DNA of 64,000 nt from an uncultured bacterium (GCA_903904875.1 CAIVEC010000001.1:10147-74146), one strand, 5' to 3'; shown: positions 8,501-62,692, counted from the stretch's first letter. Numbers and translations are program-made. The notes: generated from the sequence alone by a model not told the origin.

Positions 8501-9132
8501 GCTTTCAGTTTTTCTCCTCTAAATTCGTCGGCGATATCGCTGATGATGGTTTTGTAGGGAAGTATATCAGCTTTTGTACGCCGATAGATATATCCGATTC
8601 CCACAAAAAGAATCCGGATTACGATTCATCGTAATAAATGAATCATAGAGAAGATATATACGATCAATAAGAAAATTCAGAGTCACATTCAGAAATTGAT
8701 AAGCATCTCTTGCCATCTGGTCTCTTTGAACTTGATGTAGGTTTTGGATATCCATGTTCCGAATGCCATGATACCGAGAACAAAATACATTCCTAGGAAA
8801 TACAGTATCAAGGTATTGAGCATAAGGATGATGAATCATGCCGATCATCAGATTATGGTATCTTTGATCAGCGTGAACGCAGTGGTATACACCATCAACG
8901 TCAATGGGATGATATATATGAAGAATCTCTTTACGGAAAATACTTTTGATCTGATGATATATACGATAGGAATACACACCGCGATAATGCTCCGAATCAC
9001 TAATTTCCGATTATCCCAACTTGCCAGCATAGTCTGATAGTACGTATGGTTCGCCATGAATTCGTTGTAGATGGTCACTCCGAAAAAACTGAGGAGCAAG
9101 ATACCGATAATCAAAAAGATTTTTTGTTTCAT
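5518..9132 (-). CDS. giant polytopic membrane protein (1204 aa), family not recognised
   Basis: ORF-track fragments 5704, 6115, 6673, 7033, 8197 and 8848 share one frame. Codon-by-codon checks of 5518-5706 and 7876-8199 show only TGA between them. Many TM helices flank a hydrophilic stretch of about 280 aa. 3615 nt. Confidence 0.75.
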
Positions 9133-14334: not shown

Positions 14335-14760
14335 CTAAAGTTCTAATTTTGGTTTCTGTCTAAATTGTTTGATCTTGCTAACAAGTTTTTTTTCTATGAT
14401 GCGCGTTTCGCGCTGTTTCTTTGGTATCTTGGTAGGGATTCTTTTTTTCGGTTCCGGAAGTATTTGTATCAATAGTTGTTTGAAATGATGGATCACTTTC
14501 TCTTTGTTCGCCACCTGCAGACGCTCTTCCTGACACGTCATAATAAGGATGCCTTCTTCGTGATGAACCATATGTCCGGCTAAATCTATGAGCCTTTGTT
14601 TTTGGGCAGGAGTGAGATAATCGGAATCGTGGATATTGAAATAGAGTTCCGCCTTGGTTTCTTTCTTGTTCACCTTCTGGCCGCCATGCCCTTTGCTTTT
14701 GGAGAAATGGAAATGGACCTCTTTCTGTAAAATAGCATTTATGATATCTTGATTATTCAT
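14335..14760 (-). CDS. arfB: alternative ribosome-rescue factor ArfB (GGQ peptidyl-tRNA hydrolase)
   Basis: 141 aa, SKSKGHGGQKVNKKET GGQ motif plus basic C-terminal tail. No TGA. Confidence 0.8.
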   Translation of the reverse strand: MNNQDIINAILQKEVHFHFSKSKGHGGQKVNKKETKAELYFNIHDSDYLTPAQKQRLIDLAGHMVHHEEGILIMTCQEERLQVANKEKVIHHFKQLLIQILPEPKKRIPTKIPKKQRETRIIEKKLVSKIKQFRQKPKLEL

Positions 14761-22095: not shown

Positions 22096-22200
22096 ATTTT
22101 GTGATAAAGTAACTTTCCTCACCCCCTTTATCCCCCTCTCCTTCAGAGAAGGGGATGATTACTACTCCCTCTCTGAAGGAGAGGGTTGGGGTGAGGACAT
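22096..22200. repeat. REP-like imperfect palindrome of about 95 bp (second copy at 60690-60800)
   Basis: cctcaccccctttatccccctctccttcagaga...ctctctgaaggagagggttggggtgagg. About 85% identical to the 60.7-kb copy by eye. Confidence 0.7.
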
Positions 22201-22371: not shown

Positions 22372-23916
22372 ATGAAAAAAAACTTTACTAAATTTTTGTT
22401 CATCGCAGTAGCGGTGATCGGCATGTTTTTTGCCAAATCAAGTCAGGGACAAACAGCTTATGTAAGCTTGGATACACTTAGCAATGGAGATACTATCCAT
22501 TATTGTACTTCACAGTATACCCAGGTAGTCCTTTACAAACCAACGGCAGCATTAACAAATCCTCAATGGGATATTCAACAGCCTTCATATCATAATGTTT
22601 TTGCTGATTCTGTTATCTTAAACACCACAAACGCTGGGACAATCTGGTTTTCGTCTGATCAAACATCAACGATAGAATTAAATTTTTTTCTTGTAGGAGT
22701 ACCAAATTCTCCAGGATTAGCTGATATCAATGCCTGTGGAGATATCTACAGTTACCCGCTTGATGCATTGAATCATAATACCGGGTCTTTTTATACCTGG
22801 TCAACGGGAGCAACAACACAAAACATTACTGCTACAAGTCCCGGGACGTACTGGGTACATATTGATGATGGGTGCGGTACGATATCAGATACTGCTATCA
22901 TTACTGCAGATCATACCAATGACGCTAATCTTGGTCCTGATCAAACGATTTGTCTGTATGATACTATCACGTTGACCAGCGGTAATACCAACATCACTAC
23001 CTATGCATGGTCAACCAGTAGTTCTGCTTCGACTATTACTGTTTCGCAAGCAGGGAGCTATAGTATCACAACAACTGACAATTCTGGTTGTGTAAGTACT
23101 GATACAATGAATCTCATTATTATCGTTCCCTATGATCAGCAGCAAATCTGCATGGTAGAATATGACACTCTTGCGTCCGAGAATCGTATCAATTGGGATC
23201 AGCATCTTGGCGAAAGAATTGACAGTATTAATATCGAAAAACAGATATCACTTACTGAATGGGAAAGTATCGGAGTTGTACCCAATACAATAACTAATTT
23301 TTTGGATACCAATAGTACTCCGCAAACCAATAGCGATTCTTACCGGATTCTTGTAATAGATAGTTGTGGCAACAAATCATCAGCTTCTGATGCTCATAAG
23401 ACCATTACGCTTTTGACGAGCTACACTCCAGGAACTGGGGTTATGGGATTTAATTGGTCTCACTATCTAGTCAATGGCATACTCGTTGCACCGACCTATA
23501 CTATCTATGGTATAGATACCAGTGGAAGTACTCATGTGGTTGGCACGGTTCCGGGAAGCCAGAATTATTATAACTGGACCACCCCCGATTTGAGCTATAT
23601 CAAATTCTTTGTCGGATTTACGCTTAGTTGCGGAGCCAAAACAGATTATCTGGTACGCTCAAACTATACAGGCAACCCTGCAGGAATTGACGAATATTCT
23701 TTGACTGACCAAATTCATGTATATCCGACACTGACCAACGGTCCGATAACTATCATGACCGATCTCTTTATCAAGGATATCAAACTTTATAATACTTTGG
23801 GACAAGTACTCTTGGTCACCAAGGAGAAAAAAATTGATATTCCTTACCATGGACTTTACTTTTTACACATCAACACCGATAAAGGTGTGATGGTAACTAA
23901 AATTATGATCCAATAA
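22372..23916 (+). CDS. secreted repeat protein with Bacteroidota-type T9SS C-terminal sorting domain
   Basis: Signal peptide MKKNFTKFLFIAVAVIGMFFAKSSQG. 3 x Y.WSTGATT..ITV..GTY.V...D..GC..DT repeats. Two Fn3-like ...SCGNKS modules. CTD VYPTLTNGPITI...LYNTLGQVL...GLYFLHINTDKGVMVTKIMIQ. 514 codons with no TGA. Confidence 0.85.
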   Translation: MKKNFTKFLFIAVAVIGMFFAKSSQGQTAYVSLDTLSNGDTIHYCTSQYTQVVLYKPTAALTNPQWDIQQPSYHNVFADSVILNTTNAGTIWFSSDQTSTIELNFFLVGVPNSPGLADINACGDIYSYPLDALNHNTGSFYTWSTGATTQNITATSPGTYWVHIDDGCGTISDTAIITADHTNDANLGPDQTICLYDTITLTSGNTNITTYAWSTSSSASTITVSQAGSYSITTTDNSGCVSTDTMNLIIIVPYDQQQICMVEYDTLASENRINWDQHLGERIDSINIEKQISLTEWESIGVVPNTITNFLDTNSTPQTNSDSYRILVIDSCGNKSSASDAHKTITLLTSYTPGTGVMGFNWSHYLVNGILVAPTYTIYGIDTSGSTHVVGTVPGSQNYYNWTTPDLSYIKFFVGFTLSCGAKTDYLVRSNYTGNPAGIDEYSLTDQIHVYPTLTNGPITIMTDLFIKDIKLYNTLGQVLLVTKEKKIDIPYHGLYFLHINTDKGVMVTKIMIQ

Positions 23917-25703: not shown

Positions 25704-25847
25704 TTTATTGAATGTAGAATGTAAAATGCAGAATTCAGAATGTATAAATTGAACTACTATAATTGTATTCCATATAGCTAGAAAAACAAAAAATCTAGCT
25801 TTTGAGGGCTAGATTATCTTGCTATTTTATGTTTTTATTATGTAATA

Positions 25848-26651
25848 TTAATTTACCCGTAACTCTCCTGGACTACCTCATTGTCCGACCTTCCAAACTC
25901 CTCCTGTTAATCATTCAATTACTAAATTATCACCAGAAACAATGATTCTTCGTGGAGTTGTTCATCAGGTAAGATAGAATCCTGAGTTGCTTTGTACTGC
26001 ACCACTAACATCTAACGCATATTCTGGTGAAGTTATTCATCCGATACCGACATTTAATCAAACATTGTAAATATTTGTACTATTGGTGATCCAGGAAGCT
26101 CAATCCCAAAATGGCGTTGCTCACAATCATATTCATGCTTGTAAAAATCCTGTAGCTCCTGTATCTCCTGTCGCTCATGTTGCTCCTGTATCTCCTGTCG
26201 CTCATGTTGTTCACATTGCTCATGTCGCTCACGTTACTCATATTGGTCATATCGCTCACGTTACTCATATTGGTCATATAGCTCATGTTGGTCCACTCAG
26301 TGCAAATCCACTAATGAAGTTGTATACTGCACCACTTGTAGATGCTATTAATTTTCCACTTGCATTAGTTCCAAGCACAGCAAAGTTTAGTAAACTGTCC
26401 ATCGTTACATCGCCTTTGAACCATGCGGTTCCGCTAGCACCGTTTAAAAAAACTCCTGTAGCAGAAGTAGAATTTCCGTCTAGAGTAAGAATAAGATTTC
26501 CTACAAGTATCGTCGCATTCTTTTGTGCAGTTTTAATTTCAAACGCTTTTACCATAAAGAGTATGCAGGACATTCAGAGGAAAAACAGCGTAGCTCATTT
26601 GATGAAGCTCATGCCTTTTCTTGATTGTAAGTTTTTGCTTGTAAAGCTCAT
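25848..26651 (-). CDS. collagen-like (G-X-Y) surface fibre protein
   Basis: Same N-terminal cassette as 23994..25703. About 16 uninterrupted GXY triplets (GAIGPIGVTGAIGPIGVTGATGAMGTTGATGDTG...) at about 26100-26285, about 10 of the Gly encoded by TGA. 804 nt. Confidence 0.8.
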
Positions 26652-28898: not shown

Positions 28899-28904
28899 GA
28901 ACTA

Positions 28905-29035
28905 TGTAATGAAAAATGAAAAGTGAATAATGAAAAATGAAAGATTTGTTTTATTATGAACTATTGTAGATTATTATAGTCGATAGTAACATATTCCAAC
29001 ATTATTCATTATTCATTATTAATTATTAATTAGTT
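28905..29035. repeat. intergenic hairpin element copy 6 (core reversed)
   Basis: Arms atgaaaaatgaaaagtgaataatgaaaaatgaaag / cattattcattattcattattaatta. Core ttattatgaactattgtagattattatagtcgatagtaacatattcc. Confidence 0.75.
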
Positions 29036-33632: not shown

Positions 33633-35090
33633 CTACTCATCGAGTTTTTCGATAGCGAATTGGCGTGCCATATACGCTTCCGGACTCTTTTGTGTAAAAA
33701 TATCCAAGGCAAACATATAGGCATCCTTGAGATTCAGGAATGTCGCATTGGGAACAAGTGAAGGCATTCTCAGTGAGCTCCATATATCTTCCGGATGAGT
33801 CTCTGCTGAATTACAATACGACAACACCGGCCATGCTGTTCTGGCGGAAAGTGTTGGTCCGAGGCCGTTGATCATGCCGACTATGGCAATGATCACTGCG
33901 CCTTCCGGATACTTTGCATGCAATTCATTGAGTTTTTTGGCAGCTTTCAAAGGCATTTTGTGTCCTGAAATCACCACATCTTCAATGATTATGCTTGCAG
34001 GAATAGCTTTGAGGAATTCTTCATCTGCGAAACATTCAAGCTTATCATCAGGAGATCCTCTCCATAAGATGATCGGCTGTTTCGGGATGTAAAATTGGTT
34101 AACAAGCTGTGCTACGCGCATATAATTTTCCTGCACCTGAGCTAATGGATGACCATCACGGAAAGTCTGTTTTGATAATTCTTTCCAGTCGGCTGTCCTT
34201 AGTCTCCAGGAGTCATTGTCGATGACGTCAGCAACAACCAAGTTTCCAGCGGTATCGATTCCGAATTCGATTTTAAAATCGATTAAGCGGTAGCCCAATG
34301 TATTCCATGCTCCTTCCAACACCAGGAAAGTTTTGCGGGTGATTTCTTCGATTTTTACGAGCATATCAGGATTGGTAATAGTACTGCCGTCCATTGTTGT
34401 CAATGGAGTGATTTCCCAGGTCGGTTTCTTTGGATGTCGTAAAGTCCACTTTGAAATATCTTTCGGATTTTCGATCCAGGGATCATCAATGATTTTAATT
34501 GCCTCTTCAACAAGGTCTTCGATGGAAAGTTCCATGAGTTTTGTAATTTCCGGAAGCTTTTTTCCCACCAGTTTCTCGTTGATCTCTTTTAAAGATTTTT
34601 TAACATTCAGATATTTAATCAATTCTTCCTTATCCTTGGGAAGATAATCACGGAGATCCATGTCTCCTAATTTTCCTCCTTTGGTTTTCAGAAAGAGTTC
34701 AAATACCAGCTTATGGAAGCGATCTGGATTTCCTGGTTTGGCTAAATGAGGCATTCTTTCAAGGTATGATCCCGTAGCAAATCGACGGATAATTACTTCT
34801 AAGGGTATCATAGTACAATTTTTTGCCAAAATTTCTGTATCAGACAACTGTTCGATATACGCCGTACGGATACCTGCCTGTTCCAGCAATTCGAATATTC
34901 TGCTGGTTGTCTGAGTTGCACAAATGGCTTTTTTCTCCAGAGAACGGGTTTTTGAGGCATCATTGTCTGCCGTAGTTTCATTAGTGCTTTCCATGATAAC
35001 TAGATCATGGCGCTGGGCAACTGCCCAGATCTTTTTTGTTTTCCCTGATGTTAAGGGATTTTTGCCAAATTTCTTGAATTTTTTCTGCAT
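33633..35090 (-). CDS. bifunctional SAICAR synthetase / class II AIR carboxylase (PurC-PurE fusion, PAICS-like)
   Basis: 485-aa intact ORF. IPLEVIIRRFATGSY, DFKIEFG, ADVIDNDSWRL (PurC part). ISGHKMP, GMINGLGPTLS, IWSSLRMPS (PurE part). No TGA. Confidence 0.85.
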   Translation of the reverse strand: MQKKFKKFGKNPLTSGKTKKIWAVAQRHDLVIMESTNETTADNDASKTRSLEKKAICATQTTSRIFELLEQAGIRTAYIEQLSDTEILAKNCTMIPLEVIIRRFATGSYLERMPHLAKPGNPDRFHKLVFELFLKTKGGKLGDMDLRDYLPKDKEELIKYLNVKKSLKEINEKLVGKKLPEITKLMELSIEDLVEEAIKIIDDPWIENPKDISKWTLRHPKKPTWEITPLTTMDGSTITNPDMLVKIEEITRKTFLVLEGAWNTLGYRLIDFKIEFGIDTAGNLVVADVIDNDSWRLRTADWKELSKQTFRDGHPLAQVQENYMRVAQLVNQFYIPKQPIILWRGSPDDKLECFADEEFLKAIPASIIIEDVVISGHKMPLKAAKKLNELHAKYPEGAVIIAIVGMINGLGPTLSARTAWPVLSYCNSAETHPEDIWSSLRMPSLVPNATFLNLKDAYMFALDIFTQKSPEAYMARQFAIEKLDE

Positions 35091-39871: not shown

Positions 39872-42754
39872 ATGAAGAAAAAATTAGCTTCTTGGAAATC
39901 AGGTTGAAAATATCTTGTGGTATTTTTGTTGGGAGTGCTTTTCACTTTTGCAATCACCAATGGATTCACACTGATCCACTCTACAGTAGAAAACGCTATC
40001 CAGTTTATCAGGCAGACGAAGTTCACTGATTCCGGTTTGGATACAGGTACCGTATTCGTGGATATCAATGCAGGATCCGGATATATCAACATCAATACCT
40101 GATCGCTCGGTAATTGAACATGATGGAATTCAAGGTTTTTGGCATTGGATGCTTTGGGAAATATAACCTATGCAGCAGAACAAGATCCGATTTTTTCATC
40201 AAGTCCTGTAAGCGGAATCACACTCACCAATATAAATACTTGGAACGCAGCATATAATCGGGTACAGACCAATTCATGAGACGCATTATATTTTATCAAC
40301 AATTCATGAGATTGGGTTAATATGAGTATGACTGGCAATTGGAATAGTGGATACAATCGAATAATTACTTCATGAGATATTTTACGAGATCGATATACCA
40401 TGAGTGGATTTTCCTCACTCAGTTGTTCTACAGGAGAAATTATAAAATACAATGGGTCTACTTGGATATGTAGTAGTGATTTGGTAGGATGAAGTGGATG
40501 AAGCAACTATTACACTACCGGACTCTATTTTGATAGCGGAACTAATCTACTGACCCTCTATGTCAGCGGTTATGGACCTGTCACAGGATATATCATTTTC
40601 TCCGGTATGGATAACTGGAATAGTGCGTATAATCGAATTAATAATTCAGGAACCTTTTTACGAAGCTGGTATACTACCACAGGAATTTATATAAATACTT
40701 TAGCGACTACAACCGGGCTTAATTGTTCAACATGAGAAATCGCAAAATACAATGGGTCTACTTGGGTATGTAGTAGTGATTTAATAGGAAGTTGAGGTGG
40801 ATGAAGCAACTTTTACACTACCGGACTAGATTTTGATAGCGGAACTAATCTACTGACTCTCTATGTCAGCGGCTATGGACCTGTCACAGGATTCATCCTT
40901 TTCTCCGGTATGGATAACTGGAATAGCGCATACAATCGAATTAATAATTCAGGAACCTTTTTACGGAACCGATATACTAATTCATGAACCTTTTTACGAA
41001 ACTGGTATACCACTACAGGTATATACATCAATACGTTAGCAACAACTACTGGTCTTACTTGTTCTGCATGAGAACTTATAAAATACAATGGATCTGCTTG
41101 GGTATGTAGCGGGGATTTGGTAGGAAGTTGAGGAATTAGTTATTGGACTGCAATAGGAGACTGAACATATACATGAATACAATATCTCGGATGAGATATC
41201 GTCACTACATGATTTATTACCAAATGAATATGAGTGAGTGCTCTATGAATATATGCTACAGCGATGGGATATCAAGCAACTGCTAATTGATCTTATTCTA
41301 TCGCTATGGGATATCAGACAACTGCTAATTGATCTTATTCTACAGCTATGGGAAATACTACACAAGCTAATTGAGATTATTCTACAGCGATGGGATGGTG
41401 AACAATTGCTAGTGGAAATTATTCTACAGCGATGGGATATAATACAAAAGCTTATATAATGGGTGCTACATCTTTATGATGGAATACAACGGCTAGTTGA
41501 AGCTTTTCTACTTCAATGGGACAAAATACACAAGCAATATGACCAAGTTCTACCGCTATGGGACAAGGTTCAATGGCTATTTGAGATTCATCTACGGCGA
41601 TGGGATATCAGACACAAGCTAATTGAGATTATTCTACAGTGATGGGAAGGGACACAATTGCTAGTTGACAATATTCTACTGCGATGGGACGTCAGACAAT
41701 TGCTAATGGACTAAATTCTACGGCGATTGGATTGTGTACACATGCTAATTGAATTGATTCTACAGCAATGGGAAATATAACTACAGCAAACTGAGATGCT
41801 GCTACAGCAATGGGAACTCAGACAATTGCTAATGGACTAAATTCTACAGCAATGGGTGCAACGACACATGCTAATTGAACTGATTCTACGGCGATGGGAA
41901 ACAATACAATTGCTAGTGGATATATTTCTACTGCGATGGGAAGTTGGACAATTGCTAATTGAAATTCATCTACAGCGATGGGATCTTATACACAAGCCAT
42001 TTGAGATTATTCTACTGCTATGGGAGATGAAACAACTGCTAATGGAATTGGTTCTATTGCTATGGGATATCAAACAACCGCTGATGGAACTGGGTCTTTT
42101 GCTATTGGAAATGGAACAACCGCTAATTGAAATGGTTCTATTGCAATGTGATATTATACACATGCTAATTGAGATAGTTCTACTGCCATGGGCGATCATA
42201 CAATTGCTAATGGATATGCCTGTACGGTAATGGGGGCTTCAAATGAAATAACGACATGATCAGATTATTCCAGCATATTAGGATGACAATGAAATAAAAT
42301 ATATTGAGTATTAAATGCTTTTATCGGTGGAGGATGAAGTAATATCATAAGTTGAAGTTCCTCAATGTATTCAGTTATTCCTTGATGATCATTTAATCTT
42401 ATAGAAAATGCACAACATAGTTTTGCTTGAGGGAAAAATGCACAAGCATTGCATGATTATACTTTTGTACGAAATGGAGTTGGAGGTAGTACGGTGTTTC
42501 AATCAGAGCATTCAAATAGTTTTATTATTAATGCACCTGGAGGAGTAGGTATCGGAACTAATAATCCACAAGGAGATCTTCATGTTGCAGGAAGCGGGGT
42601 CGTGGTTTTTGAGCCACAAGACACTAATCCTCAATGAGTATGAACAGGATGTACCGTCACGTGATCAGTAGTATATGCTAAGACATCCAATAATCTTTGT
42701 TATTGTAACTGATCATGACGAACAAAATTAGTTGGACTTAATTGCGCATTCTAA
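39872..42754 (+). CDS. 960-aa surface fibre: tandem ~100-aa repeats, Hep_Hag/YadA-head repeats and beta-helix-like tail
   Basis: Checked line by line. Signal-anchor N-terminus. 2.5 x ~300-nt tandem units (40495-41130). About 25 STAMG..T.ANG.. repeats with TGA at the ANG Gly. Ends LCYCNGSG(CGA)TKLVGLNCAF. Confidence 0.85.
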
Positions 42755-43098: not shown

Positions 43099-44640
43099 AT
43101 GAAAACGCAGAAATTTTTCTTTTTTTTGTTGGTTTTCAGCATAAGCTGGATATCAACTAGAGCAACTATTCATCATGTCTATCTGGATAATACCTATAAT
43201 ACAGAATGGCATACGTTTTGCGGGGGAGTGAATGATACTGTCATCCTTCACAAACCAATAATTGCCATGAACAATATTACTTGGGTTACTCCGTTAGGTC
43301 TAATGATTTTTGCTCAGGACACCGTGATTGTGCCGTACAATAATCAAGGGGATTGGTATTTCAGTTCCACCGAAGTAGGAAAGGATGTTTATGTGTATTT
43401 CATTTCTACTCCGCCAGTTCAGCCGGCTTGCATGGCTCATGATACGAGCTTTTGTACAGCAAGTATCAATTGGACCTTGAATGCACAAAACACCAGTACA
43501 TTTTCTACCTATCTCTGGGACAATGGTGCAACTACTAAAAACAGAATAGTCACTACGGTCGGCACCTATTGGGTACAAATCACTAATGCCTGTGGTCAGA
43601 GAACTGATACGCTTCACATCACTCAGTCCAACCCTAATGCTCCTCATCTTGGAGCTGATCAGAGTTTTTGCTGGGGAAGTGGTACGATTCTCAATCCAGG
43701 AAGTACTAATGTAACTTCGTATCAATGGTCAACTGGTGCTATAACACCAACAATCACCGTAGATACGACTGGTACGTACTGGGTATATGTAATTGATGGC
43801 AATGGCTGCAGCGGCAGAGACACGATTCAAGTCACCACTTTGATTCCTATCGGTGAAGAAGAATGTTATGTAGGATTTGATACGCTCACATGGAAAAATG
43901 ATGTTAATTGGACGGTAAATTTACCCGGTAATGCTGACTCCGTACGGATCTACAAAGAGACTTCACTGAATGTGTGGACGCTTATCGGAACTGTTTCCAA
44001 GACCGTTGATCATTTCCTGGATATGGCATCTCTACCACAACAACAGAGCTATAGTTACAAAATAGCTCTAGTGGATACTTGCGGTAATGAGTCTAATCTC
44101 TCATCATTCCATACTACAATCTCACTATTGAGTGCTTACGACCAACCCAGTAACACGTATGGGTTTACATGGTCTGCATATGATGGGATTATAGTAAATG
44201 ATTATTATCTGTATGGTATCTATGGTAACGGAACTGTTACCCAAGTGGGCAGTGTACCTGGTAATCAGTTTATGTTCAATTACCTTAATCCTGATCCTGG
44301 CTTTGTAAAATATTTCGTGGGTTTTGAAACTCCGGATTGTGATGCAAAGACCAATATTGTGGTAAAAAGCAATTGGGTACTGAGAGATTCTCTACTTACC
44401 AGTGTTCATGAAGTGGGAATCATTCCGTTCGCTGTTTATCCTAATCCAGCCAGCTCACAATTGACGATCAATATCGGAGTTGAAGACTTCCAAGTGAATG
44501 TGCTTACCACGATCGGACAGGTAGTCTTGTCTGAACACAATGTGAAAACATTGGACGTAAGTAGTTTATCCAAAGGTCTGTACATTATGCAGGTAACTGC
44601 TAACGGTACAACCAGCGAAAAAAAGATTATTATCAATTAA
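43099..44640 (+). CDS. secreted repeat protein with T9SS C-terminal sorting domain (paralog of 22372..23916)
   Basis: Signal peptide and the same architecture as the paralog. CTD VYPNPASSQLTINI...GLYIMQVTANGTTSEKKIIIN. 513 codons with no TGA. Confidence 0.85.
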   Translation: MKTQKFFFFLLVFSISWISTRATIHHVYLDNTYNTEWHTFCGGVNDTVILHKPIIAMNNITWVTPLGLMIFAQDTVIVPYNNQGDWYFSSTEVGKDVYVYFISTPPVQPACMAHDTSFCTASINWTLNAQNTSTFSTYLWDNGATTKNRIVTTVGTYWVQITNACGQRTDTLHITQSNPNAPHLGADQSFCWGSGTILNPGSTNVTSYQWSTGAITPTITVDTTGTYWVYVIDGNGCSGRDTIQVTTLIPIGEEECYVGFDTLTWKNDVNWTVNLPGNADSVRIYKETSLNVWTLIGTVSKTVDHFLDMASLPQQQSYSYKIALVDTCGNESNLSSFHTTISLLSAYDQPSNTYGFTWSAYDGIIVNDYYLYGIYGNGTVTQVGSVPGNQFMFNYLNPDPGFVKYFVGFETPDCDAKTNIVVKSNWVLRDSLLTSVHEVGIIPFAVYPNPASSQLTINIGVEDFQVNVLTTIGQVVLSEHNVKTLDVSSLSKGLYIMQVTANGTTSEKKIIIN

Positions 44641-52768: not shown

Positions 52769-53413
52769 CTAATCGATTTTTCTTGCGACAAAACCCATCC
52801 ATGTTTTATTATACGGATCGGCAAAGATTCTTTTATTGATGATTTCAAATCCATGATTCTCGAGTGTCTCCTGAAGTTCTTGTTCAGTCCGATGTTTTCT
52901 GAATCTAATCATTCTTTTATTATAATCATGTTTCGTCTCTAGCCCTTCCCTGGACACCTCCGCTTTTGTAGTGCTCAAGAAGATAAGACCATTTGGTTTC
53001 AATATCTTTTTCACTTTTTTGAATACTTCCTGAATCTTGTCTTTGGGGAAGAGATGGATGAATGCACTCATATACACCGAATCAAATGTCTCTTGGAATT
53101 CATGCTGCAAAAAATCCGCCTCAATGATATCTGACATAGGGTTTCTTGTTTTCGCATACGTTGTCATTTCATGAGAAAGCTCAACACCAGTACACAAAAA
53201 CCCCTTATCATTGAAACACTTAACGGCTATCCCGACAGCGCAACCTATGTCCAAAACACTGTTTCCAGGCTGTAAGTATGTTGCGCAAATCTCTATAGCT
53301 TCTACCGTCATCGGGATTAAACTTCCGACACGAGACTCATACTCATCAGCAAGCGTATCATATGCTTGTTTGTGAATACTATCATCAGATTTATGTTTGA
53401 GGTTTCTTTTCAT
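52769..53413 (-). CDS. class I SAM-dependent methyltransferase
   Basis: VLDIGCAVGI motif I. 214 codons with no TGA. Confidence 0.8.
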   Translation of the reverse strand: MKRNLKHKSDDSIHKQAYDTLADEYESRVGSLIPMTVEAIEICATYLQPGNSVLDIGCAVGIAVKCFNDKGFLCTGVELSHEMTTYAKTRNPMSDIIEADFLQHEFQETFDSVYMSAFIHLFPKDKIQEVFKKVKKILKPNGLIFLSTTKAEVSREGLETKHDYNKRMIRFRKHRTEQELQETLENHGFEIINKRIFADPYNKTWMGFVARKID

Positions 53414-54787: not shown

Positions 54788-56200
54788 ATGTTTCAAAATA
54801 AAAAATCTAAAATAAAAAAAGATATGATACAAACCAAAACATTTATTCGCGCTACGGGAAAGTATATTCCTGAGCGTGTCGTGCCAAACTCGGATTTTGA
54901 AGATCCAGAGAAATATGAATTCTTCATATCCAATGACAAAAAAGAAGAACGCTCCAATCTTGAAATTGCCGACAAACTTGCAGAAATCACGGGTATCAAA
55001 GAACGACGATATTTTGATGAGCATACGACAACTTCAGATGCAGGCTATCGTGCCGCAAAAAACGCTTATGATGCTTCCAGAGATGATCCACAAAAAACCG
55101 ATGTCTTCATTTTCGCTCATAATTTCGGTGACATCCGTTATGAAGAGGATAAGTTTGATTGTGTGCCCTGCCATGCAGCAAGAATCAAGAATAATCTCGG
55201 TGTAGAAAACCCTTATACGGTTGCTTATGATATCGCTATCAGCGGTGCTTGTTTGATAAGGGATCTCACGAAACTAAAGGAGTATCTTGCTTTGGGGCCT
55301 AATGATCTTGTCGTAGAAACTGAGAATTATGAGCTCACTGGTATCTATGAAAAAGCTCAGCGTGCTTTTTCTCTTCTTGACGTGCAAAAGGAAAGCTTAC
55401 ATCGGATTATTGTGATTCATATTATTTATGAAAAATTATGTCTTGCAGCCAAAGTAAAAAGAAGGCTGGAAACAGCTAATCCCGATGCGCTTGCTTTTGA
55501 TGTGCTTTTCGGCTGTCCTGGGTGGCTCCATAGTGTAAGCATTGCTGACGCATTCATCACCTCAGAGAAAGCAAAAAAAATCATGGTTATCGGTGCTGAA
55601 GCATTATCACGAGTATCTGATTATTCAGATCCGGATAGCCAGATCTATTCTGATGGAGGAGGCGCCATCTATCTTGAGGGACGAAAAGTAGACGTTTCTG
55701 AGACCCTGGATGATAGTTTTTTCATCTTTGCATCTGTGGGTGCCGGTATGAATCGTAATGTCATGGTGTACTCCAAAAAGTATGGCATCTTAGGTTATCT
55801 TGTATGTTCAGATACCACATCGAAGTATCTCAATCTGCTCTGGATGGATAGATCGTATAATTCTAAGATCGCTGGCTTATATCTCAAAATAAAGGGATCA
55901 ACTGTCTTTGGATATGCAAAAGGGAAAGTTCCTGAGCTTATCAAACAGCTGATGGACAAGCTTGGAATAAACATCAATCAAGTAATCCGCATGTATCTTC
56001 ACCAGGCTAATGAGACATTGGATATAGCAATGACAAAGGGCGTCTTCGAACTTTGTTGTGGCAGAAAAGACTATTCCACTGATCCTCCTACCCCTAGCTA
56101 CATCATTCCTGATGGGCTCGTTCCTATGACCATTCAAAAGTATGGCAATAATTCCGTTGCTACACTACCTATACTGTTGGATGAGTTTGGATTGCAGTAA
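54788..56200 (+). CDS. FabH-like beta-ketoacyl synthase III family protein with ~90-aa internal insertion
   Basis: ITGIKE(CGA CGA)YFDE, AFDVLFGCPGW active-site Cys, IGAEALS(CGA)VSD, HQAN, GNNSVATLP. 470 codons with no TGA. True start may be ATG 54824. Confidence 0.8.
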   Translation: MFQNKKSKIKKDMIQTKTFIRATGKYIPERVVPNSDFEDPEKYEFFISNDKKEERSNLEIADKLAEITGIKERRYFDEHTTTSDAGYRAAKNAYDASRDDPQKTDVFIFAHNFGDIRYEEDKFDCVPCHAARIKNNLGVENPYTVAYDIAISGACLIRDLTKLKEYLALGPNDLVVETENYELTGIYEKAQRAFSLLDVQKESLHRIIVIHIIYEKLCLAAKVKRRLETANPDALAFDVLFGCPGWLHSVSIADAFITSEKAKKIMVIGAEALSRVSDYSDPDSQIYSDGGGAIYLEGRKVDVSETLDDSFFIFASVGAGMNRNVMVYSKKYGILGYLVCSDTTSKYLNLLWMDRSYNSKIAGLYLKIKGSTVFGYAKGKVPELIKQLMDKLGININQVIRMYLHQANETLDIAMTKGVFELCCGRKDYSTDPPTPSYIIPDGLVPMTIQKYGNNSVATLPILLDEFGLQ

Positions 56201-58846: not shown

Positions 58847-59064
58847 AGTAATAGTAGTAAATATGTAAAAAAAAATTAGTAACTTTGAATATTTTTAAAA
58901 ATAGCACGTAGTGTATACAGATGCTACATCAAAAATCAAGAGATTTTTTGTCATCTTTTTTGCCTGCCTGCTATTGCATTGTTTTAGCAATAATTACTAA
59001 TATCTATTGTAATATGTCAATAAATAATTATATATTCTTTGTTTTTATGTCTTAATCATAAAAA

Positions 59065-59721
59065 ATGACTCCTCCGATTTGAGAAACGCCCGTCACACCA
59101 GAAAACGTGAATAATCTTACCGACACAGAACTGGATATTGTTTTGAATTCCGAAAAAGCCCAAGCAAAAATCGCAGCCAATCTGTTATCAAAAATCCCTG
59201 AATTTGAAAAAAACACTTTTAGGATAGATAGCGCATGATGGAAAGAAGAAACAAGACATATACAATGACAATGACCAGTCAGCCTGAAAGTAAATCCACA
59301 ATGAGACGTATTAGAATTTGTGGACGGTCCTGCAAAATGAGAACAGTTATTTATCACGTATAATGGATTTATAAGAGAAGCATGTGCGCAGAAAGGCGTT
59401 TCAAAAGAAGTATTAGAACAAAAATATTTGCCGACACCTGAAAAACTGACAAAAATGGCTGGTGGACAAGGACCAGGAAAAGAGCAATATAAAACATTTT
59501 ATGAGGCAGCTACCATCAATAAACATCTTGCTGGATATCGGATGCCTGATATCCCAAGATTTCATGAAACCGGTAAAAGTTTCTTTGTACGATTGGCTCA
59601 AGGCAATTCTGTCCAATTTGACATATCCGGATGGTATCGCTTCGATAACAGACCAAGTCGGTTTAATTATAAAGACCTTAATGCAGGTCATGGTTTAAGC
59701 GGTCTATTATTAAAGGACTAG
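59065..59721 (+). CDS. hypothetical protein (218 aa)
   Basis: ORF 59428..59721 extended upstream through 5 TGA to ATG 59065. 657 nt. No family recognised. Confidence 0.55.
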
Positions 59722-59735
59722 ATCAAATTTCTTCT

Positions 59736-60629
59736 TTAAAAAAAATGGAGACTGAAATACAGCCTCCATCATGTTTTAATGCCTTTATCTTTCCGCACAT
59801 ACAAGGTCGGTCGCCAAGGATAGCGCAGAAAGATCGAACCGAAGCTGATAGCTTTCGCACCGAGTTTCCTCACTTTCTCGATGTCGTCAAACTCCCATAC
59901 GCTTGGGCCGATCACGGGAATCGAAGTCGATGTGACAAGCTTCTCGATCAGGCTCCAGGTGAATGGCTGTGCCGCTTTGCCGGAAACACCGCCTCCTCCA
60001 AAGTTTGCCAGAGGGCTTTTTTTATTTGGAAAAGCTATCGCCCATGAGACACTGTTGATTGAAATAGCTTCGACAAGATTTTCGACTTCCTTCACGATTT
60101 GTTCTATGTCGTGGCTGACTGATAGTTTCAGAATCAACGGCAGACGGGAATTCTCCTTAACCGCTTTACAGCTTGCTATCACTCTTGCTGTATTATGAAG
60201 AATATCGGTTTTGGTATTCGGACAAGAAGCGTCTATTTCTAGTCCTACTAAATCAAATCTATCCAGCATCCTAGGCATTTCCGCCAGTTCTTCCGGTTCG
60301 CCGAAAATTGAAACAACCAAGGGAATTTTGTTTGAATCAACTGACGGGCCGATTTTTTCGCACCACCAGGCAATGCCGGGATTTGATAAACCGACTGCAT
60401 TCACTACTCCGCCATGGAGCAATCGTATGCATCGTAAAGGATTGTACCAACGAAGATTTCCTTCCGTTGGTTGAAGTGTGAGTGTTTTGGTGACTGAGGT
60501 GAAAAGTGTCGGGTCAAAAATTTTTAACCACTGCCAAGGACGTTCCCATGGCCAACCTTTTCCGTCGAAACCCAAAGCACCGCTTGCGGTCATATATTCA
60601 AAGGCATGACCATTAGAAAATTTTATCAT
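59736..60629 (-). CDS. dihydroorotate dehydrogenase-like (PyrD family) flavoenzyme
   Basis: GNLRWYNPL(CGA)..., VNAVGLSNPG, DASCPN, LKLS, FGGGGVSG. 286 codons with no internal TGA. The standard-code stop is TGA at 59769; under code 25 the frame runs 11 more codons to TAA at 59736. Confidence 0.75.
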
Positions 60630-60689
60630 ACTGCCTCCTTTTTTTGAAGAATTTTTTTCGACTATAGATATCCCATAGCTTTTATCAAG

Positions 60690-60800
60690 TCGGAAGGTTT
60701 GAAGAGTTTTTCCTCACCCCCTTTCTCCCCCTCTCCTTCAGAGAGGGGTATGATTACTGCTCCTTCTCTGAAGGAGAAGGTTGGGATGAGGAAAGTTACT
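60690..60800. repeat. REP-like imperfect palindrome, second copy
   Basis: cctcaccccctttctccccctctccttcagagagg...ctctgaaggagaaggttgggatgagg. See 22096-22200. Confidence 0.7.
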
Positions 60801-60880
60801 CAATACCTTGTAAACCAGCTTTGAAAAAATATAAAACAACCAATTCTGAATTCTGCATTTTACATTCTGCATTCAAAAAA

Positions 60881-62083
60881 ATGTCCGTCTATTCATTCTC
60901 GCAGACGCAGTGTTTCGTGCAATGTCCGCGCAAGTACCAGTATAAATATGTCGACAAGATCCAGGAAAAGGAATTTGAATCGAGTCCGGATCTGATTCTC
61001 GGACATAGCGTCCACGCAGCATTGGAACGGCTGTATAATCAGATAAATGTTTTTAAAGTCCCTGCCAAGGATGAGCTTTTGGCGAAGTTCAAGGACCAAC
61101 GGGATACTGAATTGAAAGAGGCGACCATCGAGAAACCATTGGAGATGAAATGAGAACAGACGCTTGAGGACTACATCCGCAGAGGCATCCATTATGTGGC
61201 GAACTATTATGACAAGTATAGTCCCTTTGAAAATATCACCGTCGTCGCTACGGAAGCGTCGATAGTTTTTGATCTGAATGACCAGGTAAAATTCCGTGGA
61301 TTCATCGATAGATTGGATAAAGAAGGAGAAACGTTCATCATCAATGATTATAAGACGAACAAGAATCTTCCGCCGGAGAGCAAGGAAGAATACATCGATC
61401 AGCTCACCTTGTATGGTCTAGGAGTGCAGCAGAATTATGCGAAATATTTTAAAACAATCAAAGCCAGACTCCACTATCTTCATTTTGACCTGATGGACGA
61501 ATGGGAGATCACTCCTGAGCTTTTGGCTACAGTCACGAAAAAATATGTGGATACAATCACCGATATTGAAGCAAAAAAATTCGCGTACAATATGGGAGAT
61601 AAAAAATGTTTCGATCCGAAACAGAATAATTTTTGTAAATATTGTGAATACTATTCGCTCTGCCCTTTGTGGGCGCATCTGAAATTCGACGACGAAGTCA
61701 TAGGAAGCGAATTAGGAGAGAAGACCGTGAAAGGATTGGTGGATGAATATGTCGCGTTGTCCAAGCAAGAATCACAGGCCAAGAACGATAGGGAGTTGAT
61801 CAAAATCTTGTTGGTCGAATATCTCGAGAAAAAGAACCTATTGAAATTGTTTTGAAACGTGTATAAAATATCAGCTTCACAAGCTGAAAATATCAGTATT
61901 GCCGATAAAGAAGCGCTAAAGAAAGTCTTGCAGGAATTGGGAATTTTGAATGAAGTGATGGAAGTCGATAGGTTTAAGTTACAGAAATTAGTCAAAGATA
62001 AAAAATTGTCGCTAGAACAACTTGGTGTGACTGTTCAAAAAAATAGTAGTCGGACACTCAGAGCTGGCGCAAAAAAGGAATAA
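60881..62083 (+). CDS. PD-(D/E)XK nuclease with Cas4/AddB-type Fe-S cysteines
   Basis: N-terminal QCPRKY Cys, FIDRLD...INDYKT catalytic motif, C-terminal CKYCEYYSLCP. Three ORF-track pieces joined by 2 TGA. 1203 nt. Confidence 0.75.
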
Positions 62084-62561
62084 AAAAAACGCACCTAATA
62101 CAGGTGCGATTATATAACATGGTAAGAAAAACTCATATACCGATAGCTTGGCATAAATTTTCACAGATTTTTTTTTGGGTGTCTGCTTCAGATATGTGGG
62201 TAAATATTTGACTGAGTGGATGTACAATTCCTACGGTATCATTATACGTGCTTGTATACTGGTATTTTTGATTTTCATGTATCGATAAAGCACTTGCAAT
62301 GTTGTCAAATTCTTTTTTACCGAAAGCTCTGAAACTTTCCGGATTGAAATCCATGCAGCGGTGTGCAAAAATCTTTATAGCCCTTTTGATGACGGCTATC
62401 TTTCCGTCTCTTTTAAATCTTTTTATTCCATTTATAACATAACGGATTTCTTTTTTTTGTCTCTGTATGGCATAGTGATCACATATACAAACGTACATTA
62501 TAATCGAGCCAATTATACCCCCAAAAATAAGGCATAGTACATAGTAAATTACGTGTGTCAT
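62013..62561 (-). CDS. hypothetical membrane protein; 142-aa ORF ends at TGA 62133-62135 and reads on to TAG 62013 under code 25
   Basis: N-terminal TM VIYYVLCLIFGGIIGSIIMYV. No internal TGA. Hairpin cgcacct/aggtgcg (62090-62108) with a T-run in minus orientation lies just after the TGA. Confidence 0.5.
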
Positions 62562-62692
62562 AGTTTTTTTTCTCCTTTTCGTTTTGGATTAATATATTTG
62601 TTTTAAAACTTATATACATATTTAATTTAAAAAGTCAATCAAAAAAACCTGAGACTCAAAGCGAACTCAGGTTAGAAAATATATCAATTATT

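What the first reader, a model, noticed from the sequence alone, without database searches (positions are those of the whole stretch)
59736..62561. Genes whose apparent stop is TGA: read-through into a terminator and a convergent gene under the host code
The 142-aa membrane ORF (62133..62561, minus) has no internal TGA and ends with TGA at 62133-62135. About 25 nt further on the minus strand is a hairpin (62090-62108) followed by a T-run, i.e. a terminator oriented for this gene. Under code 25 translation would continue 40 codons through the terminator and 70 nt into the convergent nuclease gene, or run off the transcript end. The neighbouring PyrD-like gene (286 codons, no internal TGA) also ends at TGA (59769), giving an 11-codon extension. 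It uses CGA in GN....NPL-CGA, where DHODH-family enzymes have a conserved Pro-Arg. Together with the nuclease gene (only 2 TGA in 400 codons), this 2.8-kb block looks like imported standard-code DNA.
Basis: inference. Interest (0 to 1): 0.75.

Follow-up and report, generated by a model that had tools for sequence, protein, structure and literature searches.

The report
Standard-code genes inside a recoded genome
In a bacterium that reads TGA as glycine and CGA/CGG as tryptophan, two genes ending in TGA belong to a scattered minority of genes that related genomes have kept in the ordinary genetic code over long periods, which no current model of such organisms explains.

Summary
The PyrD-like gene (59769-60629, minus) and a 142-codon membrane ORF (62133-62561, minus) have no in-frame TGA. 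Each ends at TGA just before a strong terminator.

One figure was wrong. Read-through of the membrane ORF is 53 codons and 110 nt into the nuclease gene, not 40 codons and 70 nt.

Native genes in the window read TGA as Gly and CGA/CGG as Trp. These two genes do not follow that code:
- they spell Trp only as TGG or lack Trp;
- they, or their orthologues, use CGA/CGG where homologues have Arg or Lys;
- they are the only two of 46 genes with a Shine-Dalgarno sequence.

"Imported standard-code block" is only partly right:
- The nuclease between them is native, with TGA at Gly columns and CGG/CGA swapping with TGG.
- Composition is ordinary.
- PyrD-like orthologues sit at the same locus in four other recoded genomes and end in TAA or TAG before the same hairpin.

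Neighbouring genes swap TGA/GGN and CGR/TGG freely. PyrD-like (5 genomes) and a FabH-like gene (4 genomes) never do, so selection treats TGA in them as a stop. The window holds other TGA-free genes too.

How translation ends there is not shown. Run-off and ArfB rescue is my inference.

The parts
59769..60629 (-). PyrD-like gene (DHO_dh family paralogue) read in the standard code: 286 codons plus TGA. It has 0 in-frame TGA, 11 TGG, and 3 CGA + 1 CGG at conserved Arg sites.
59769..59771 (-). Terminal TGA of the PyrD-like gene. The orthologues in four other recoded genomes end in TAA or TAG a few codons earlier.
59736..59770 (-). Intrinsic terminator of the PyrD-like gene: stem-loop 59744-59770 and a T8 run ending at 59738. 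The hairpin core GGAGGC..GTCTCC is conserved in all five recoded genomes. Read with TGA as sense it gives GWRLYFSLHFF plus TAA (59736-59738).
60634..60638 (-). Shine-Dalgarno GGAGG, 4 nt upstream of the PyrD-like ATG. L013, L014, L017 and the two Parcubacteria loci carry GGAGG; L003 has only AAAGGA.
60881..62083 (+). PD-(D/E)XK nuclease gene, native dialect: 2 TGA in all-Gly columns, CGG/CGA interchanging with TGG among relatives, no SD. It is not part of any imported block.
62133..62561 (-). 142-codon membrane ORF plus TGA. It has no in-frame TGA, no TGG and no CGA/CGG. The CGA/CGG codons of orthologue L009 align with Lys, Arg and Gln codons here.
62133..62135 (-). Terminal TGA of the membrane ORF. 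The 98%-identical orthologue has TAA at this codon, a single A/G difference. A 52%-identical orthologue (L009) has TGA.
62572..62577 (-). Shine-Dalgarno AAGGAG upstream of the membrane ORF, conserved in L006 and L009.
62082..62108 (-). Intrinsic terminator of the membrane ORF: hairpin 62090-62108 plus T8 62082-62089, 24 nt after the TGA. The T-run overlaps the TAA of the convergent nuclease gene.
61974..62132 (-). Read-through frame if TGA is glycine: 52 codons after the TGA plus TAA, antisense to the last 110 nt of the nuclease gene. It is not kept in frame in the close relative (T7 versus T8).
14335..14760 (-). ArfB, a codon-independent peptidyl-tRNA hydrolase that rescues stalled ribosomes. 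It is a candidate for releasing peptides from ribosomes that run past these TGAs; a role here is inferred only.
54788..56200 (+). FabH-like gene, a second standard-dialect family. It is TGA-free in four recoded genomes, and its CGA/CGG codons interchange with CGC, CGT, AGA, AGG, AAA and AAG. Public calls start at 54824.
33633..35090 (-). PurC-PurE fusion gene, TGA-free: 21 Gly codons, 10 TGG, and CGA in an RR-F-ATGSY motif.
22372..23916 (+). TGA-free gene for a protein with a T9SS C-terminal sorting domain: 35 Gly codons and 9 TGG.
43099..44640 (+). Paralogue of the previous gene, TGA-free: 36 Gly codons and 15 TGG. Por_Secre_tail passes its cut-offs.
52769..53413 (-). SAM methyltransferase gene, TGA-free here and in L003, and absent between RlmN and RlmL in L019. 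Class membership is uncertain because it has few informative codons and a native-looking leader.

Best explanation
The window comes from an Absconditabacteria-type genome whose own genes read TGA as glycine and CGA/CGG as tryptophan (shown). The PyrD-like gene and the small membrane ORF are not written in that code. PyrD-like has no in-frame TGA, spells tryptophan only as TGG, and puts CGA/CGG where homologues have arginine. The membrane ORF has no in-frame TGA and no Trp or CGA/CGG codons of its own; its orthologue L009 uses CGA/CGG at Lys, Arg and Gln positions. Both have a Shine-Dalgarno sequence (shown).

They belong to a minority class of chromosomal genes that related recoded genomes keep in this standard dialect. 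This holds even though adjacent native genes swap TGA/GGN and CGR/TGG freely (shown for two families, PyrD-like in 5 genomes and FabH-like in 4). Selection therefore treats TGA in these genes like TAA and TAG, as something that must not occur in frame (inferred from the comparative pattern).

On that reading the two terminal TGAs are ordinary stop-codon turnover in standard-code genes. The membrane ORF has a TAA/TGA point difference from its closest relative. The PyrD-like gene has a remodelled tail. Each TGA sits at the usual place before the gene's own terminator.

The region is not a recently imported contiguous block.

How translation physically ends is not shown. My best guess assumes that this organism, like published relatives, lacks release factor 2. 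In that case the ribosome passes or stalls at the TGA. On terminated transcripts it reaches the 3' end about 10 (PyrD-like) or 16 (membrane ORF) codons later. ArfB, encoded at 14335-14760, or tmRNA then releases it. On read-through PyrD-like transcripts it stops at the TAA 11 codons on.
For: Host code:
- TGA falls at conserved Gly in DnaK and rubrerythrin.
- 13 of 19 CGA/CGG codons in LeuRS align with Trp of T. thermophilus LeuRS.
- CGR/TGG swaps occur among orthologues of rubrerythrin, nuclease, RlmL and PAP2, and never CGR/Arg swaps.

Dialect of the target genes:
- PyrD-like CGA/CGG sit at positions that are Arg in 74-111 of 115 homologues.
- Five-genome codon columns read CGA-AAG-CGA-CGA-CGA and CGG-CGA-CGG-CTT-AGG. 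Eight Trp columns are invariant TGG.
- Across 19 all-Gly columns in 5 genomes, GGN codons turn over in 14 columns and TGA never appears.
- Membrane ORF: CGR codons of L009 align with AAA, AGG, AAG and CAA.
- FabH-like in 4 genomes at 55-95% aa identity: 0 TGA in 136 Gly codons, seven CGR columns shared with Arg or Lys codons, and GIKE-CGA-CGA = GIKERR of PDB 2ebd.
- Its immediate neighbours RlmL and PAP2 show TGA in 13 of 24 and 3 of 9 all-Gly columns, and CGR/TGG swaps in 4 of 6 and 6 of 9 columns.

Tallies from my count over:
- CGR columns shared with TGG versus with Arg/Lys codons are 14/0 in native genes and 0/15 in standard-dialect genes.
- By my hand calculation the Fisher exact p is about 1e-8.

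Rate and signals:
- Synonymous divergence is the same in both classes; identical codons among identical residues run 0.43-0.72 versus 0.51-0.72.
- 0 of 38 native genes have an SD core, and the two TGA-ended genes are the only two of 46 genes that do.

Vertical history:
- Synteny, clustering in the tree and a conserved hairpin.

Stop turnover:
- Membrane ORF has TAA, TGA and TGA in three lineages at the same codon.
- PyrD-like has TGA, TAA, TAG, TAA, TAG.

Gene-end geometry:
- Measured from TGA, the terminators begin at -2 and +24 nt. The spacing after other genes' TAA or TAG is 3-85 nt, usually 18-35.

Rescue factor:
- ArfB passes its NCBIfam equivalog cut-off.
Against: - Nothing here shows how any codon is actually decoded. 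All inference is comparative.
- Published relatives lack RF2, and CPR bacteria are thought to have no Arg tRNA for CGA/CGG (PMC6851277, PMC8629427). A standard-code reading therefore has no known machinery in these cells.
- Under the host code these proteins would carry Trp at conserved Arg sites, which is hard to reconcile with intact, conserved ORFs.
- The class was first picked by absence of TGA. The CGR, TGG and SD criteria are independent, but they are informative only for some members. ArfB, the methyltransferase and the window's own membrane ORF have few or no diagnostic codons.
- Only two families could be followed across genomes, and only 10-20 kb per relative was seen.
- No tRNA, tmRNA, prfB or 16S gene lies in the sequence held.
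- PyrD-like and FabH-like evolve faster than their neighbours. PyrD-like is 81% identical between genomes whose DnaK is 99% identical. This could instead mean relaxed selection.
Confidence: 0.5

Rival explanations
1. The 2.8-kb stretch is standard-code DNA imported recently. It has not had time to acquire host codons, and its TGA stops are relics that the host now reads through.
For: PyrD-like is 75-80% identical to Parcubacteria proteins, and even its SD region resembles theirs. It has no TGA, only TGG for Trp, and CGA at Arg sites. The region between nuclease and DnaK is rearranged between close relatives.
Against: The nuclease in the middle is native dialect. GC and codon usage are ordinary. 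PyrD-like lies next to the same nuclease gene in four other recoded genomes that cluster together. FabH-like keeps the same dialect down to 55% identity and has no close standard-code homologue. Orthologues end in TAA or TAG, so the TGA ends are derived rather than relics.
Confidence: 0.07
2. Nothing special. These are ordinary host-code genes that lost their stop by mutation. TGA is glycine, the proteins carry short or run-off extensions that are tolerated, and the lack of TGA and the use of CGA are chance or a codon-bias effect.
For: TAA to TGA is a single transition. Homologue C-termini of PyrD-like vary by about 20 residues, so a 297-aa product is within the family range. Strong terminators limit the extension. 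ArfB is present. Recoded E. coli resolves unreadable stops by rescue (PMC6207430).
Against: It does not explain 0 TGA among 250 Gly codons of two families in nine gene copies, when neighbours have 31%. It does not explain CGR evolving as Arg in these genes and as Trp next door. It does not explain SD in exactly these two genes, or TGA recurring at the same stop position in L009 with no TAA or TAG for at least 58 codons. DnaK, a highly expressed gene, carries 8 TGAs, so plain expression bias is not enough.
Confidence: 0.2
3. A conditional code switch inside the cell, as in stop-codon-recoded phages. The tRNAs for UGA-Gly and CGR-Trp are scarce under some condition, and the standard-dialect genes are the ones that must be made then. 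At a hungry terminal UGA the ribosome is released by ArfB.
For: It explains selection against TGA and against CGR-for-Trp in a gene subset. ArfB is encoded. A precedent for mixed code use within one genome exists in phages (PMC10746230 and its references).
Against: There is no known Arg tRNA for CGA/CGG in CPR bacteria (PMC8629427), so CGR read as Arg stays unexplained. No tRNA genes could be examined. The class members share no obvious functional theme.
Confidence: 0.1
4. The standard-dialect genes are read by another organism's ribosomes, for example those of the standard-code host or prey of this episymbiont. In that case the alternative code would separate self-translated from partner-translated messages.
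For: Selection on these genes follows the standard code. Two class members carry a T9SS sorting domain, a signal used by Bacteroidota secretion machinery. Several have A-rich, SD-less leaders, unlike the T-rich native leaders.
Against: No transfer mechanism is known. The genes are scattered singletons among housekeeping genes. Their initiation signals are heterogeneous, with SD in two and A-rich leaders in others. PyrD-like is a CPR-wide family rather than an obvious effector.
Confidence: 0.08
5. Assembly chimera: standard-code fragments from other organisms were stitched into a recoded contig.
For: All sequences come from metagenome assemblies.
Against: The same junctions recur in independent assemblies from ENA, JGI, NCBI and Logan, and in diverged genomes with conserved gene order.
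Confidence: 0.02

Closest known systems
Absconditabacteria genetic code (table 25, UGA to Gly, plus CGA/CGG to Trp; Shulgina and Eddy 2021, PMC8629427)
   Same: The window's native genes follow it exactly: TGA at conserved Gly, and CGA/CGG at conserved Trp and interchanging with TGG.
   Different: That work infers one code per genome. Here a subset of chromosomal genes in the same genomes behaves as standard code: no TGA, CGA/CGG at Arg, TGG only. The three searches of the held literature found no report of such heterogeneity.
Code-11-compatible phages predicted to infect Gracilibacteria and Absconditabacteria (Liu et al. 2023, PMC10746230)
   Same: Genes without in-frame TGA in the orbit of recoded hosts; TGA is sometimes used as a stop.
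   Different: Those are phage genomes, and their TGA stops are backed up by nearby TAA or TAG. Here the genes are chromosomal, syntenic and vertically inherited. The membrane ORF has no backup stop for 53 codons. The genes are not code-neutral, because they use CGA/CGG as Arg.
Stop-codon-recoded phages with different code use in early and late genes (own knowledge: Ivanova 2014, Borges 2022; cited in PMC10746230)
   Same: One genome holds two sets of genes that are each consistent with a different code.
   Different: In phages the minority set is recoded and a phage suppressor tRNA explains the switch. Here the minority set is standard, the genome is cellular, and no switching machinery is in view.
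Ribosome rescue at unreadable or missing stops: tmRNA, ArfA, ArfB (Ma et al. 2018, PMC6207430); ICT1 in human mitochondria (own knowledge)
   Same: A gene whose last codon cannot be read by a release factor can still yield protein through rescue. ArfB is encoded in the window.
   Different: In recoded E. coli the codon is unassigned and the outcome is mostly degradation. Here the codon is assigned to Gly, and whether rescue occurs is untested.
Amelioration of horizontally acquired genes (own knowledge: Lawrence and Ochman 1997)
   Same: PyrD-like probably entered from an SD-using, standard-code CPR lineage, and it keeps donor-like signals.
   Different: Amelioration predicts drift toward host usage at the synonymous rate. 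Here synonymous change is as large as in native genes, yet host-dialect codons never appear.

Membership tests
Host genome: table 25 plus CGA/CGG to Trp (Absconditabacteria-type code) | In-frame TGA at conserved glycine positions | tested here: met
   DnaK GEIA-TGA-LKV and DLG-TGA-GTFD; rubrerythrin KE-TGA and EEE-TGA. TGA/GGN swaps in all-Gly columns.
Host genome: table 25 plus CGA/CGG to Trp (Absconditabacteria-type code) | CGA and CGG at conserved tryptophan positions | tested here: met
   13 of 19 LeuRS CGR codons align to W of PDB 1h3n. CGR/TGG swaps in rubrerythrin, nuclease, RlmL and PAP2.
Host genome: table 25 plus CGA/CGG to Trp (Absconditabacteria-type code) | tRNA-Gly(UCA) and Trp-type tRNA(UCG) present; prfB absent | not testable with these tools
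   Only tRNA-Ser(GGA) lies in the window, and no tRNA lies in eight related loci.
Standard-code gene (table 11) | No in-frame TGA, with the absence conserved among orthologues | tested here: met
   PyrD-like: 0 of 114 Gly codons in 5 genomes. FabH-like: 0 of 136 in 4 genomes. Native genes: 434 TGA versus 949 GGN.
Standard-code gene (table 11) | CGA/CGG encode arginine | tested here: met
   Homologue residues are R at the PyrD-like CGR sites. CGR interchanges with CGY, AGR and AAR in PyrD-like, FabH-like and the membrane ORF. ERR motif.
Standard-code gene (table 11) | The cell actually decodes it that way, with TGA as stop | not testable with these tools
   Needs proteomics or ribosome profiling.
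Recently acquired genomic island | Atypical base composition or codon usage | tested here: not met
   GC is 0.40-0.41 against a window range of 0.34-0.42. Non-Gly codon-usage scores of PyrD-like, the membrane ORF and the nuclease gene lie mid-distribution.
Recently acquired genomic island | Absent from, or differently placed in, close relatives | tested here: not met
   Same neighbourhood in L003/L004/L006, L014 and L017.
Recently acquired genomic island | One contiguous foreign block with mobility genes or flanking repeats | tested here: not met
   The nuclease gene between the two genes is native. No integrase was seen. One palindromic repeat lies upstream of PyrD-like only.
Rho-independent terminator | G+C-rich hairpin followed by a T-run, more stable than shuffles | tested here: met
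   -16.4 and -11.3 kcal/mol, z about -5, 0 of 200 shuffles as good.
Rho-independent terminator | Lies downstream of the stop codon of the gene it serves | tested here: inconclusive
   True if TGA is the stop (-2 and +24 nt). False if TGA is Gly, because both terminators then lie inside the ORF, unlike 13 other gene-end terminators.
Dihydroorotate dehydrogenase PyrD | Score above the curated family cut-off | tested here: not met
   The Pfam DHO_dh domain is present (68 bits). NCBIfam PyrD models score 103, 89 and 85 bits against cut-offs of 269-330. This is a family paralogue, not demonstrably PyrD.
ArfB ribosome-rescue hydrolase | Equivalog model above cut-off; GGQ motif; basic C-terminal tail | tested here: met
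   NF006718 scores 101.6 bits against a cut-off of 100. GHGGQ and a Lys/Arg-rich tail are visible in the sequence.
Programmed read-through or functional C-terminal extension | Extension conserved in frame among orthologues | tested here: not met
   Orthologues stop before the hairpin. The membrane-ORF downstream frame is broken by a T7/T8 difference.
Code-neutral ('code-11-compatible') genes, as in Gracilibacteria phages | Avoid every codon whose meaning differs between the two codes, and back up TGA stops | tested here: not met
   They use CGA/CGG as Arg. The membrane ORF has no TAA or TAG for 53 codons after its TGA.

The most novel reading that the evidence does not exclude
These episymbiont genomes carry two genetic codes side by side, and both are kept by selection. 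Most genes are in the recoded dialect (UGA = Gly, CGA/CGG = Trp). A scattered minority stays in the standard code, including legitimate TGA stops, because something that uses the standard code reads them. Or it could be the cell itself under a switched tRNA and release regime. The code difference would then partition which messages are translated where or when.
Probability: 0.2. Interest if true: 0.95.

Novelty: new variant of a known kind. Interest (0 to 1): 0.78.

Why it matters
Alternative genetic codes are treated as genome-wide properties and as barriers to gene exchange. Here, in at least six related recoded genomes, neighbouring genes evolve under different codon meanings. In one gene CGA behaves as Arg and TGA never appears in frame. 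In the next gene CGA swaps with TGG and TGA swaps with GGN.

If this holds genome-wide, it has three consequences:
1. Single-table annotation mistranslates a defined set of proteins. Public records already extend these two genes through their terminators.
2. Per-genome code inference averages over two signals.
3. One can ask directly how a cell thought to lack RF2 and an Arg tRNA for CGA/CGG expresses such genes, or who else expresses them.

This bears on how codon reassignments proceed and on the biology of uncultivated episymbionts.

Tried and rejected
- The genome-contig scan with PyrD-like returned only three standard-code Patescibacteria loci. Two were full-length at 77% identity and ended in TAG before a different hairpin. 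No recoded genome was found.
- The metagenome scan with the membrane-ORF alignment re-found one known contig only. That family has just three known lineages.
- Pfam and NCBIfam give nothing for the membrane ORF.
- tRNA, tmRNA and Rfam scans of the window and eight loci found only tRNA-Ser. The decoding machinery could not be examined.
- A leave-one-out codon-usage likelihood on non-Gly codons did not separate the TGA-free genes. It tracks a housekeeping-versus-surface-protein axis instead.
- Expression-level codon bias was rejected as the sole cause. DnaK keeps 8 TGAs, and such bias cannot make CGA behave as Arg.
- Ambiguous decoding of CGA/CGG was rejected as the main state. LeuRS places 19 such codons, mostly at conserved Trp positions.
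- Pseudogenes were rejected. The ORFs stay intact and free of all three stops over 279-457 codons in 4-5 lineages.
- Repeated re-import was rejected. Gene order, the conserved 3' hairpin and tree clustering argue for vertical descent.
- Assembly chimera was rejected because the junctions recur in independent assemblies.
- I did not attempt structure prediction. The tools return no coordinates with which to place the Arg sites.


Full report
**1. What is in the sequence**

The window uses TGA as a sense codon. Long ORFs appear only when TGA is read through. TGA sits at invariant glycines of DnaK (GEIA-TGA-LKV, DLG-TGA-GTFD) and of rubrerythrin.

The PyrD-like ORF (59769-60629, minus) has 286 codons without TGA, then TGA. 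The membrane ORF (62133-62561, minus) has 142 codons without TGA, then TGA.

Read-through of the membrane ORF is 53 codons and overlaps the nuclease gene by 110 nt.

The stem spans 59744-59770 and is followed by T8; it folds at -16.4 kcal/mol, z = -5.05. The "11-codon extension" GWRLYFSLHFF is that hairpin and T-run read in frame. Its TAA is formed by the last T of the run.

Thirteen clean gene-end terminators lie 3-85 nt (mostly 18-35) after a same-strand TAA or TAG. Only these two fall inside a TGA-as-sense ORF. Counted from the TGA they begin at -2 and +24 nt.

**2. What the genes are**

- The PyrD-like protein has a DHO_dh domain but scores far below the curated PyrD cut-offs.
- It belongs to a family of more than 1000 proteins, 283-289 aa typical, that is 65-80% identical across Parcubacteria-type CPR bacteria.
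- The gene between the two is a PD-(D/E)XK nuclease.
- The membrane ORF has no family assignment and only three known lineages.

**3. Relatives**

Exact copies of both TGA variants occur on several independent assemblies.

A close relative genome is held as L006, L004 and L003. Its DnaK is 99% identical, and flanking DNA is 85-95% identical. It carries rubrerythrin, membrane ORF, nuclease, PyrD-like ... DnaK, PAP2, FabH-like, RlmL, methyltransferase and RlmN in the same order.

In that genome the membrane ORF is 98% identical and ends in TAA exactly where the window has TGA (GGTATATAAG versus GGTATATGAG). A 52%-identical orthologue, L009, again has TGA at that codon. It has its own terminator and no TAA or TAG for at least 58 codons.

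PyrD-like orthologues lie beside the same nuclease gene in L003/L004, L014 and L017, and L013 is a fourth recoded genome. All end in TAA or TAG a few codons earlier than the window gene. All are followed by the same hairpin core GGAGGC..GTCTCC. They cluster together in a neighbour-joining tree.

So the orthologues do not share the extended C-termini. The window's TGA ends are derived states, not relics.

**4. The host code is more altered than table 25**

Native genes are poor in TGG: 88 TGG against 166 CGA+CGG. In LeuRS, 13 of 19 CGA/CGG codons align with Trp of T. thermophilus LeuRS (KK-W-Q, YD-W, K-W-TQ-W-IF, SRQRY-W-G).

Among orthologues of rubrerythrin, nuclease, RlmL and PAP2, CGA and CGG interchange with TGG and never with Arg codons. 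This is the Absconditabacteria code of Shulgina and Eddy (PMC8629427).

**5. The two TGA-ended genes are written differently**

- PyrD-like has 11 TGG codons. Its 3 CGA and 1 CGG sit where 74, 111, 103 and 86 of 115 homologues have Arg.
- Across five recoded genomes its CGR columns read CGA-AAG-CGA-CGA-CGA, CGA-AAA-CGA-GGA-CGA and CGG-CGA-CGG-CTT-AGG. Eight Trp columns are TGG in all five.
- Its 19 all-Gly columns show GGN turnover in 14 columns but never TGA.
- The membrane ORF has no CGR or TGG codons of its own. The four CGR codons of L009 align with AAA, AGG, AAG and CAA.
- Both genes carry a Shine-Dalgarno sequence (GGAGG; AAGGAG) that most relatives share; L003's PyrD-like has only AAAGGA. 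None of 38 native genes has an SD core. Native leaders are G-poor, with a T-rich block near -20.

**6. The nuclease between them is native**

Its two TGAs fall in all-Gly columns, and three of its Trp columns mix TGG with CGG/CGA. It lacks SD, and its leader is almost identical to that of another native gene. GC content and non-Gly codon usage of the region are unremarkable. There is therefore no contiguous foreign block.

**7. A gene class, kept over time**

Eight genes in the window have no in-frame TGA: 0 of 166 Gly codons, against 434 TGA to 949 GGN elsewhere. They are TGG-rich.

Besides the two target genes they are:
- a FabH-like gene;
- a PurC-PurE fusion;
- two paralogues with a T9SS sorting domain;
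- a methyltransferase;
- ArfB.

The last two are small and ambiguous.

FabH-like could be followed in four recoded genomes down to 55% identity, always between RlmL and PAP2. It shows:
- 0 TGA in 136 Gly codons;
- 21 all-Gly columns with GGN turnover only;
- TGG never replaced by CGR;
- seven CGR columns shared with CGC, CGT, AGA, AGG, AAA or AAG;
- the FabH ERR motif spelled CGA-CGA in all four genomes.

In the same genomes its immediate neighbours show TGA in 13 of 24 (RlmL) and 3 of 9 (PAP2) all-Gly columns. They show CGR/TGG swaps in 4 of 6 and 6 of 9 columns. DnaK is 99% identical between two genomes yet differs in TGA state at 6 of 11 TGA columns.

Synonymous divergence is alike in both classes. 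By my own tally over, CGR columns shared with TGG versus with Arg/Lys codons are 14/0 in native genes and 0/15 in the minority class. By hand calculation the Fisher exact p is about 1e-8.

These genes have had the same opportunity to acquire host-dialect codons and have not. Selection treats TGA in them as it treats TAA and TAG.

**8. Reading of the finding**

The two TGAs are the stop codons of standard-dialect genes. They arose by ordinary stop turnover: a TAA/TGA transition in the membrane ORF, and a remodelled tail in PyrD-like. Each sits where a stop should sit relative to its terminator.

PyrD-like probably did come from an SD-using, standard-code CPR lineage. Its identity to Parcubacteria proteins (77-79%) equals its identity among recoded orthologues, and its SD region is similar. 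That transfer happened before these genomes diverged.

**9. Mechanism**

What is shown is the codon patterns, the conservation and the gene-end geometry. What is inferred is how translation ends.

Published relatives lack prfB (PMC6851277). CPR bacteria are thought to read CGA/CGG only through tRNA-UCG or tRNA-CCG (PMC8629427). If the host code applies, ribosomes pass the TGA. On terminated mRNAs they reach the 3' end after about 10 (PyrD-like) or 16 (membrane ORF) codons and need rescue.

The window encodes ArfB, which passes its equivalog cut-off. Recoded E. coli resolves unreadable stops through tmRNA, ArfA and ArfB (PMC6207430). That account explains tolerance of the TGA ends. It does not explain why TGA and CGR-for-Trp are excluded from these genes, or why CGA evolves as Arg.

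Two alternatives would explain those patterns: a conditional switch of the tRNA and release regime, or translation by a standard-code partner cell. Neither has support beyond the pattern itself and the T9SS signals.

**10. Limits**

- Only 64 kb plus 10-20 kb from each relative were seen.
- Only two families were traced across genomes.
- No decoding machinery was in view.
- PyrD-like and FabH-like evolve faster than their neighbours, which may signal relaxed constraint.
- Three searches of the held literature found no description of such intragenomic dialects.

Noticed in passing
window, upstream 40 nt of 38 native genes (e.g. 58847-58886, 32689-region, 28899-28938): Native genes have no Shine-Dalgarno core at all (0 of 38). 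Their leaders are G-poor (9.6% G against 19.6% overall), with a T-rich block near -23..-18 and often a doubled TTTA..TTA pattern. This suggests a non-SD or leaderless initiation mode.
   Followed up: partly
window 60692-60768 and 22114-22197; also L003 3023-3103, L004 3821-3901: A roughly 80-nt palindromic repeat (CCCTCTCTGAAGGAGAGGG-type arms) lies just upstream of the PyrD-like gene and again 38 kb away (91.7% identity between L001, a near-identical copy of this region, and window 22114-22197). Copies sit at other positions in the relative genome, like a REP or MITE element. Public gene calls run the PyrD-like ORF through it, giving a 378-aa product.
   Followed up: partly
window 22372-23916 and 43099-44640: Two paralogous (37% identical) TGA-free, Trp-rich secreted proteins end in a T9SS (Por_Secre_tail) sorting domain. 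That signal belongs to Bacteroidota secretion systems, which this kind of organism is not expected to have. Each gene is followed by a near-identical terminator (AAATCCCGAAG.../AAATCCGGGAG...).
   Followed up: partly
window 60851-60880 and 25704-25733: The 30 nt before the nuclease ATG and before the YadA-repeat gene 23994-25703 are nearly identical (TTCTGCATTTTACATTCT[G/A]CATTCAA[A/T]AAA). The YadA-repeat gene and 25848-26651 also share almost the same first 35 residues.
   Followed up: no
window 23994-25703, 25848-26651, 39872-42754: Surface-repeat proteins use TGA for 36-46% of their glycines (41, 23 and 54 TGA codons). This is the opposite extreme from the TGA-free class.
   Followed up: no
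window 52769-53413 versus L019 4634-4745: The SAM methyltransferase between RlmN and RlmL in the window and L003 is absent in L019, where the two genes are adjacent. It is an insertion in this lineage.
   Followed up: partly
window 59065-59721 versus L003 1477-4258: Between PyrD-like and DnaK the window has one convergent 218-aa ORF, where the close relative has three unrelated co-directional genes. The nuclease 5' half and PyrD-like are also the most diverged DNA (76-81%) of the shared region. This looks like a local hot spot of replacement.
   Followed up: partly
window 33633-35090: A PurC-PurE fusion, the PAICS-like arrangement known from animals, is TGA-free and has 10 TGG codons.
   Followed up: no
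public records of this contig (P0124): The deposited protein reads ...GIKTWWRLYFSLHFF, so the record was translated with TGA as Trp (table 4), not Gly. The membrane ORF is annotated as 195 aa overlapping the nuclease gene.
   Followed up: yes
window 5518-9132: A 1204-aa membrane protein carries 26 CGA/CGG codons and 10 TGG. By eye most CGA/CGG codons lie in hydrophobic stretches, which fits Trp. It would be a useful test case for the CGR reassignment.
   Followed up: no
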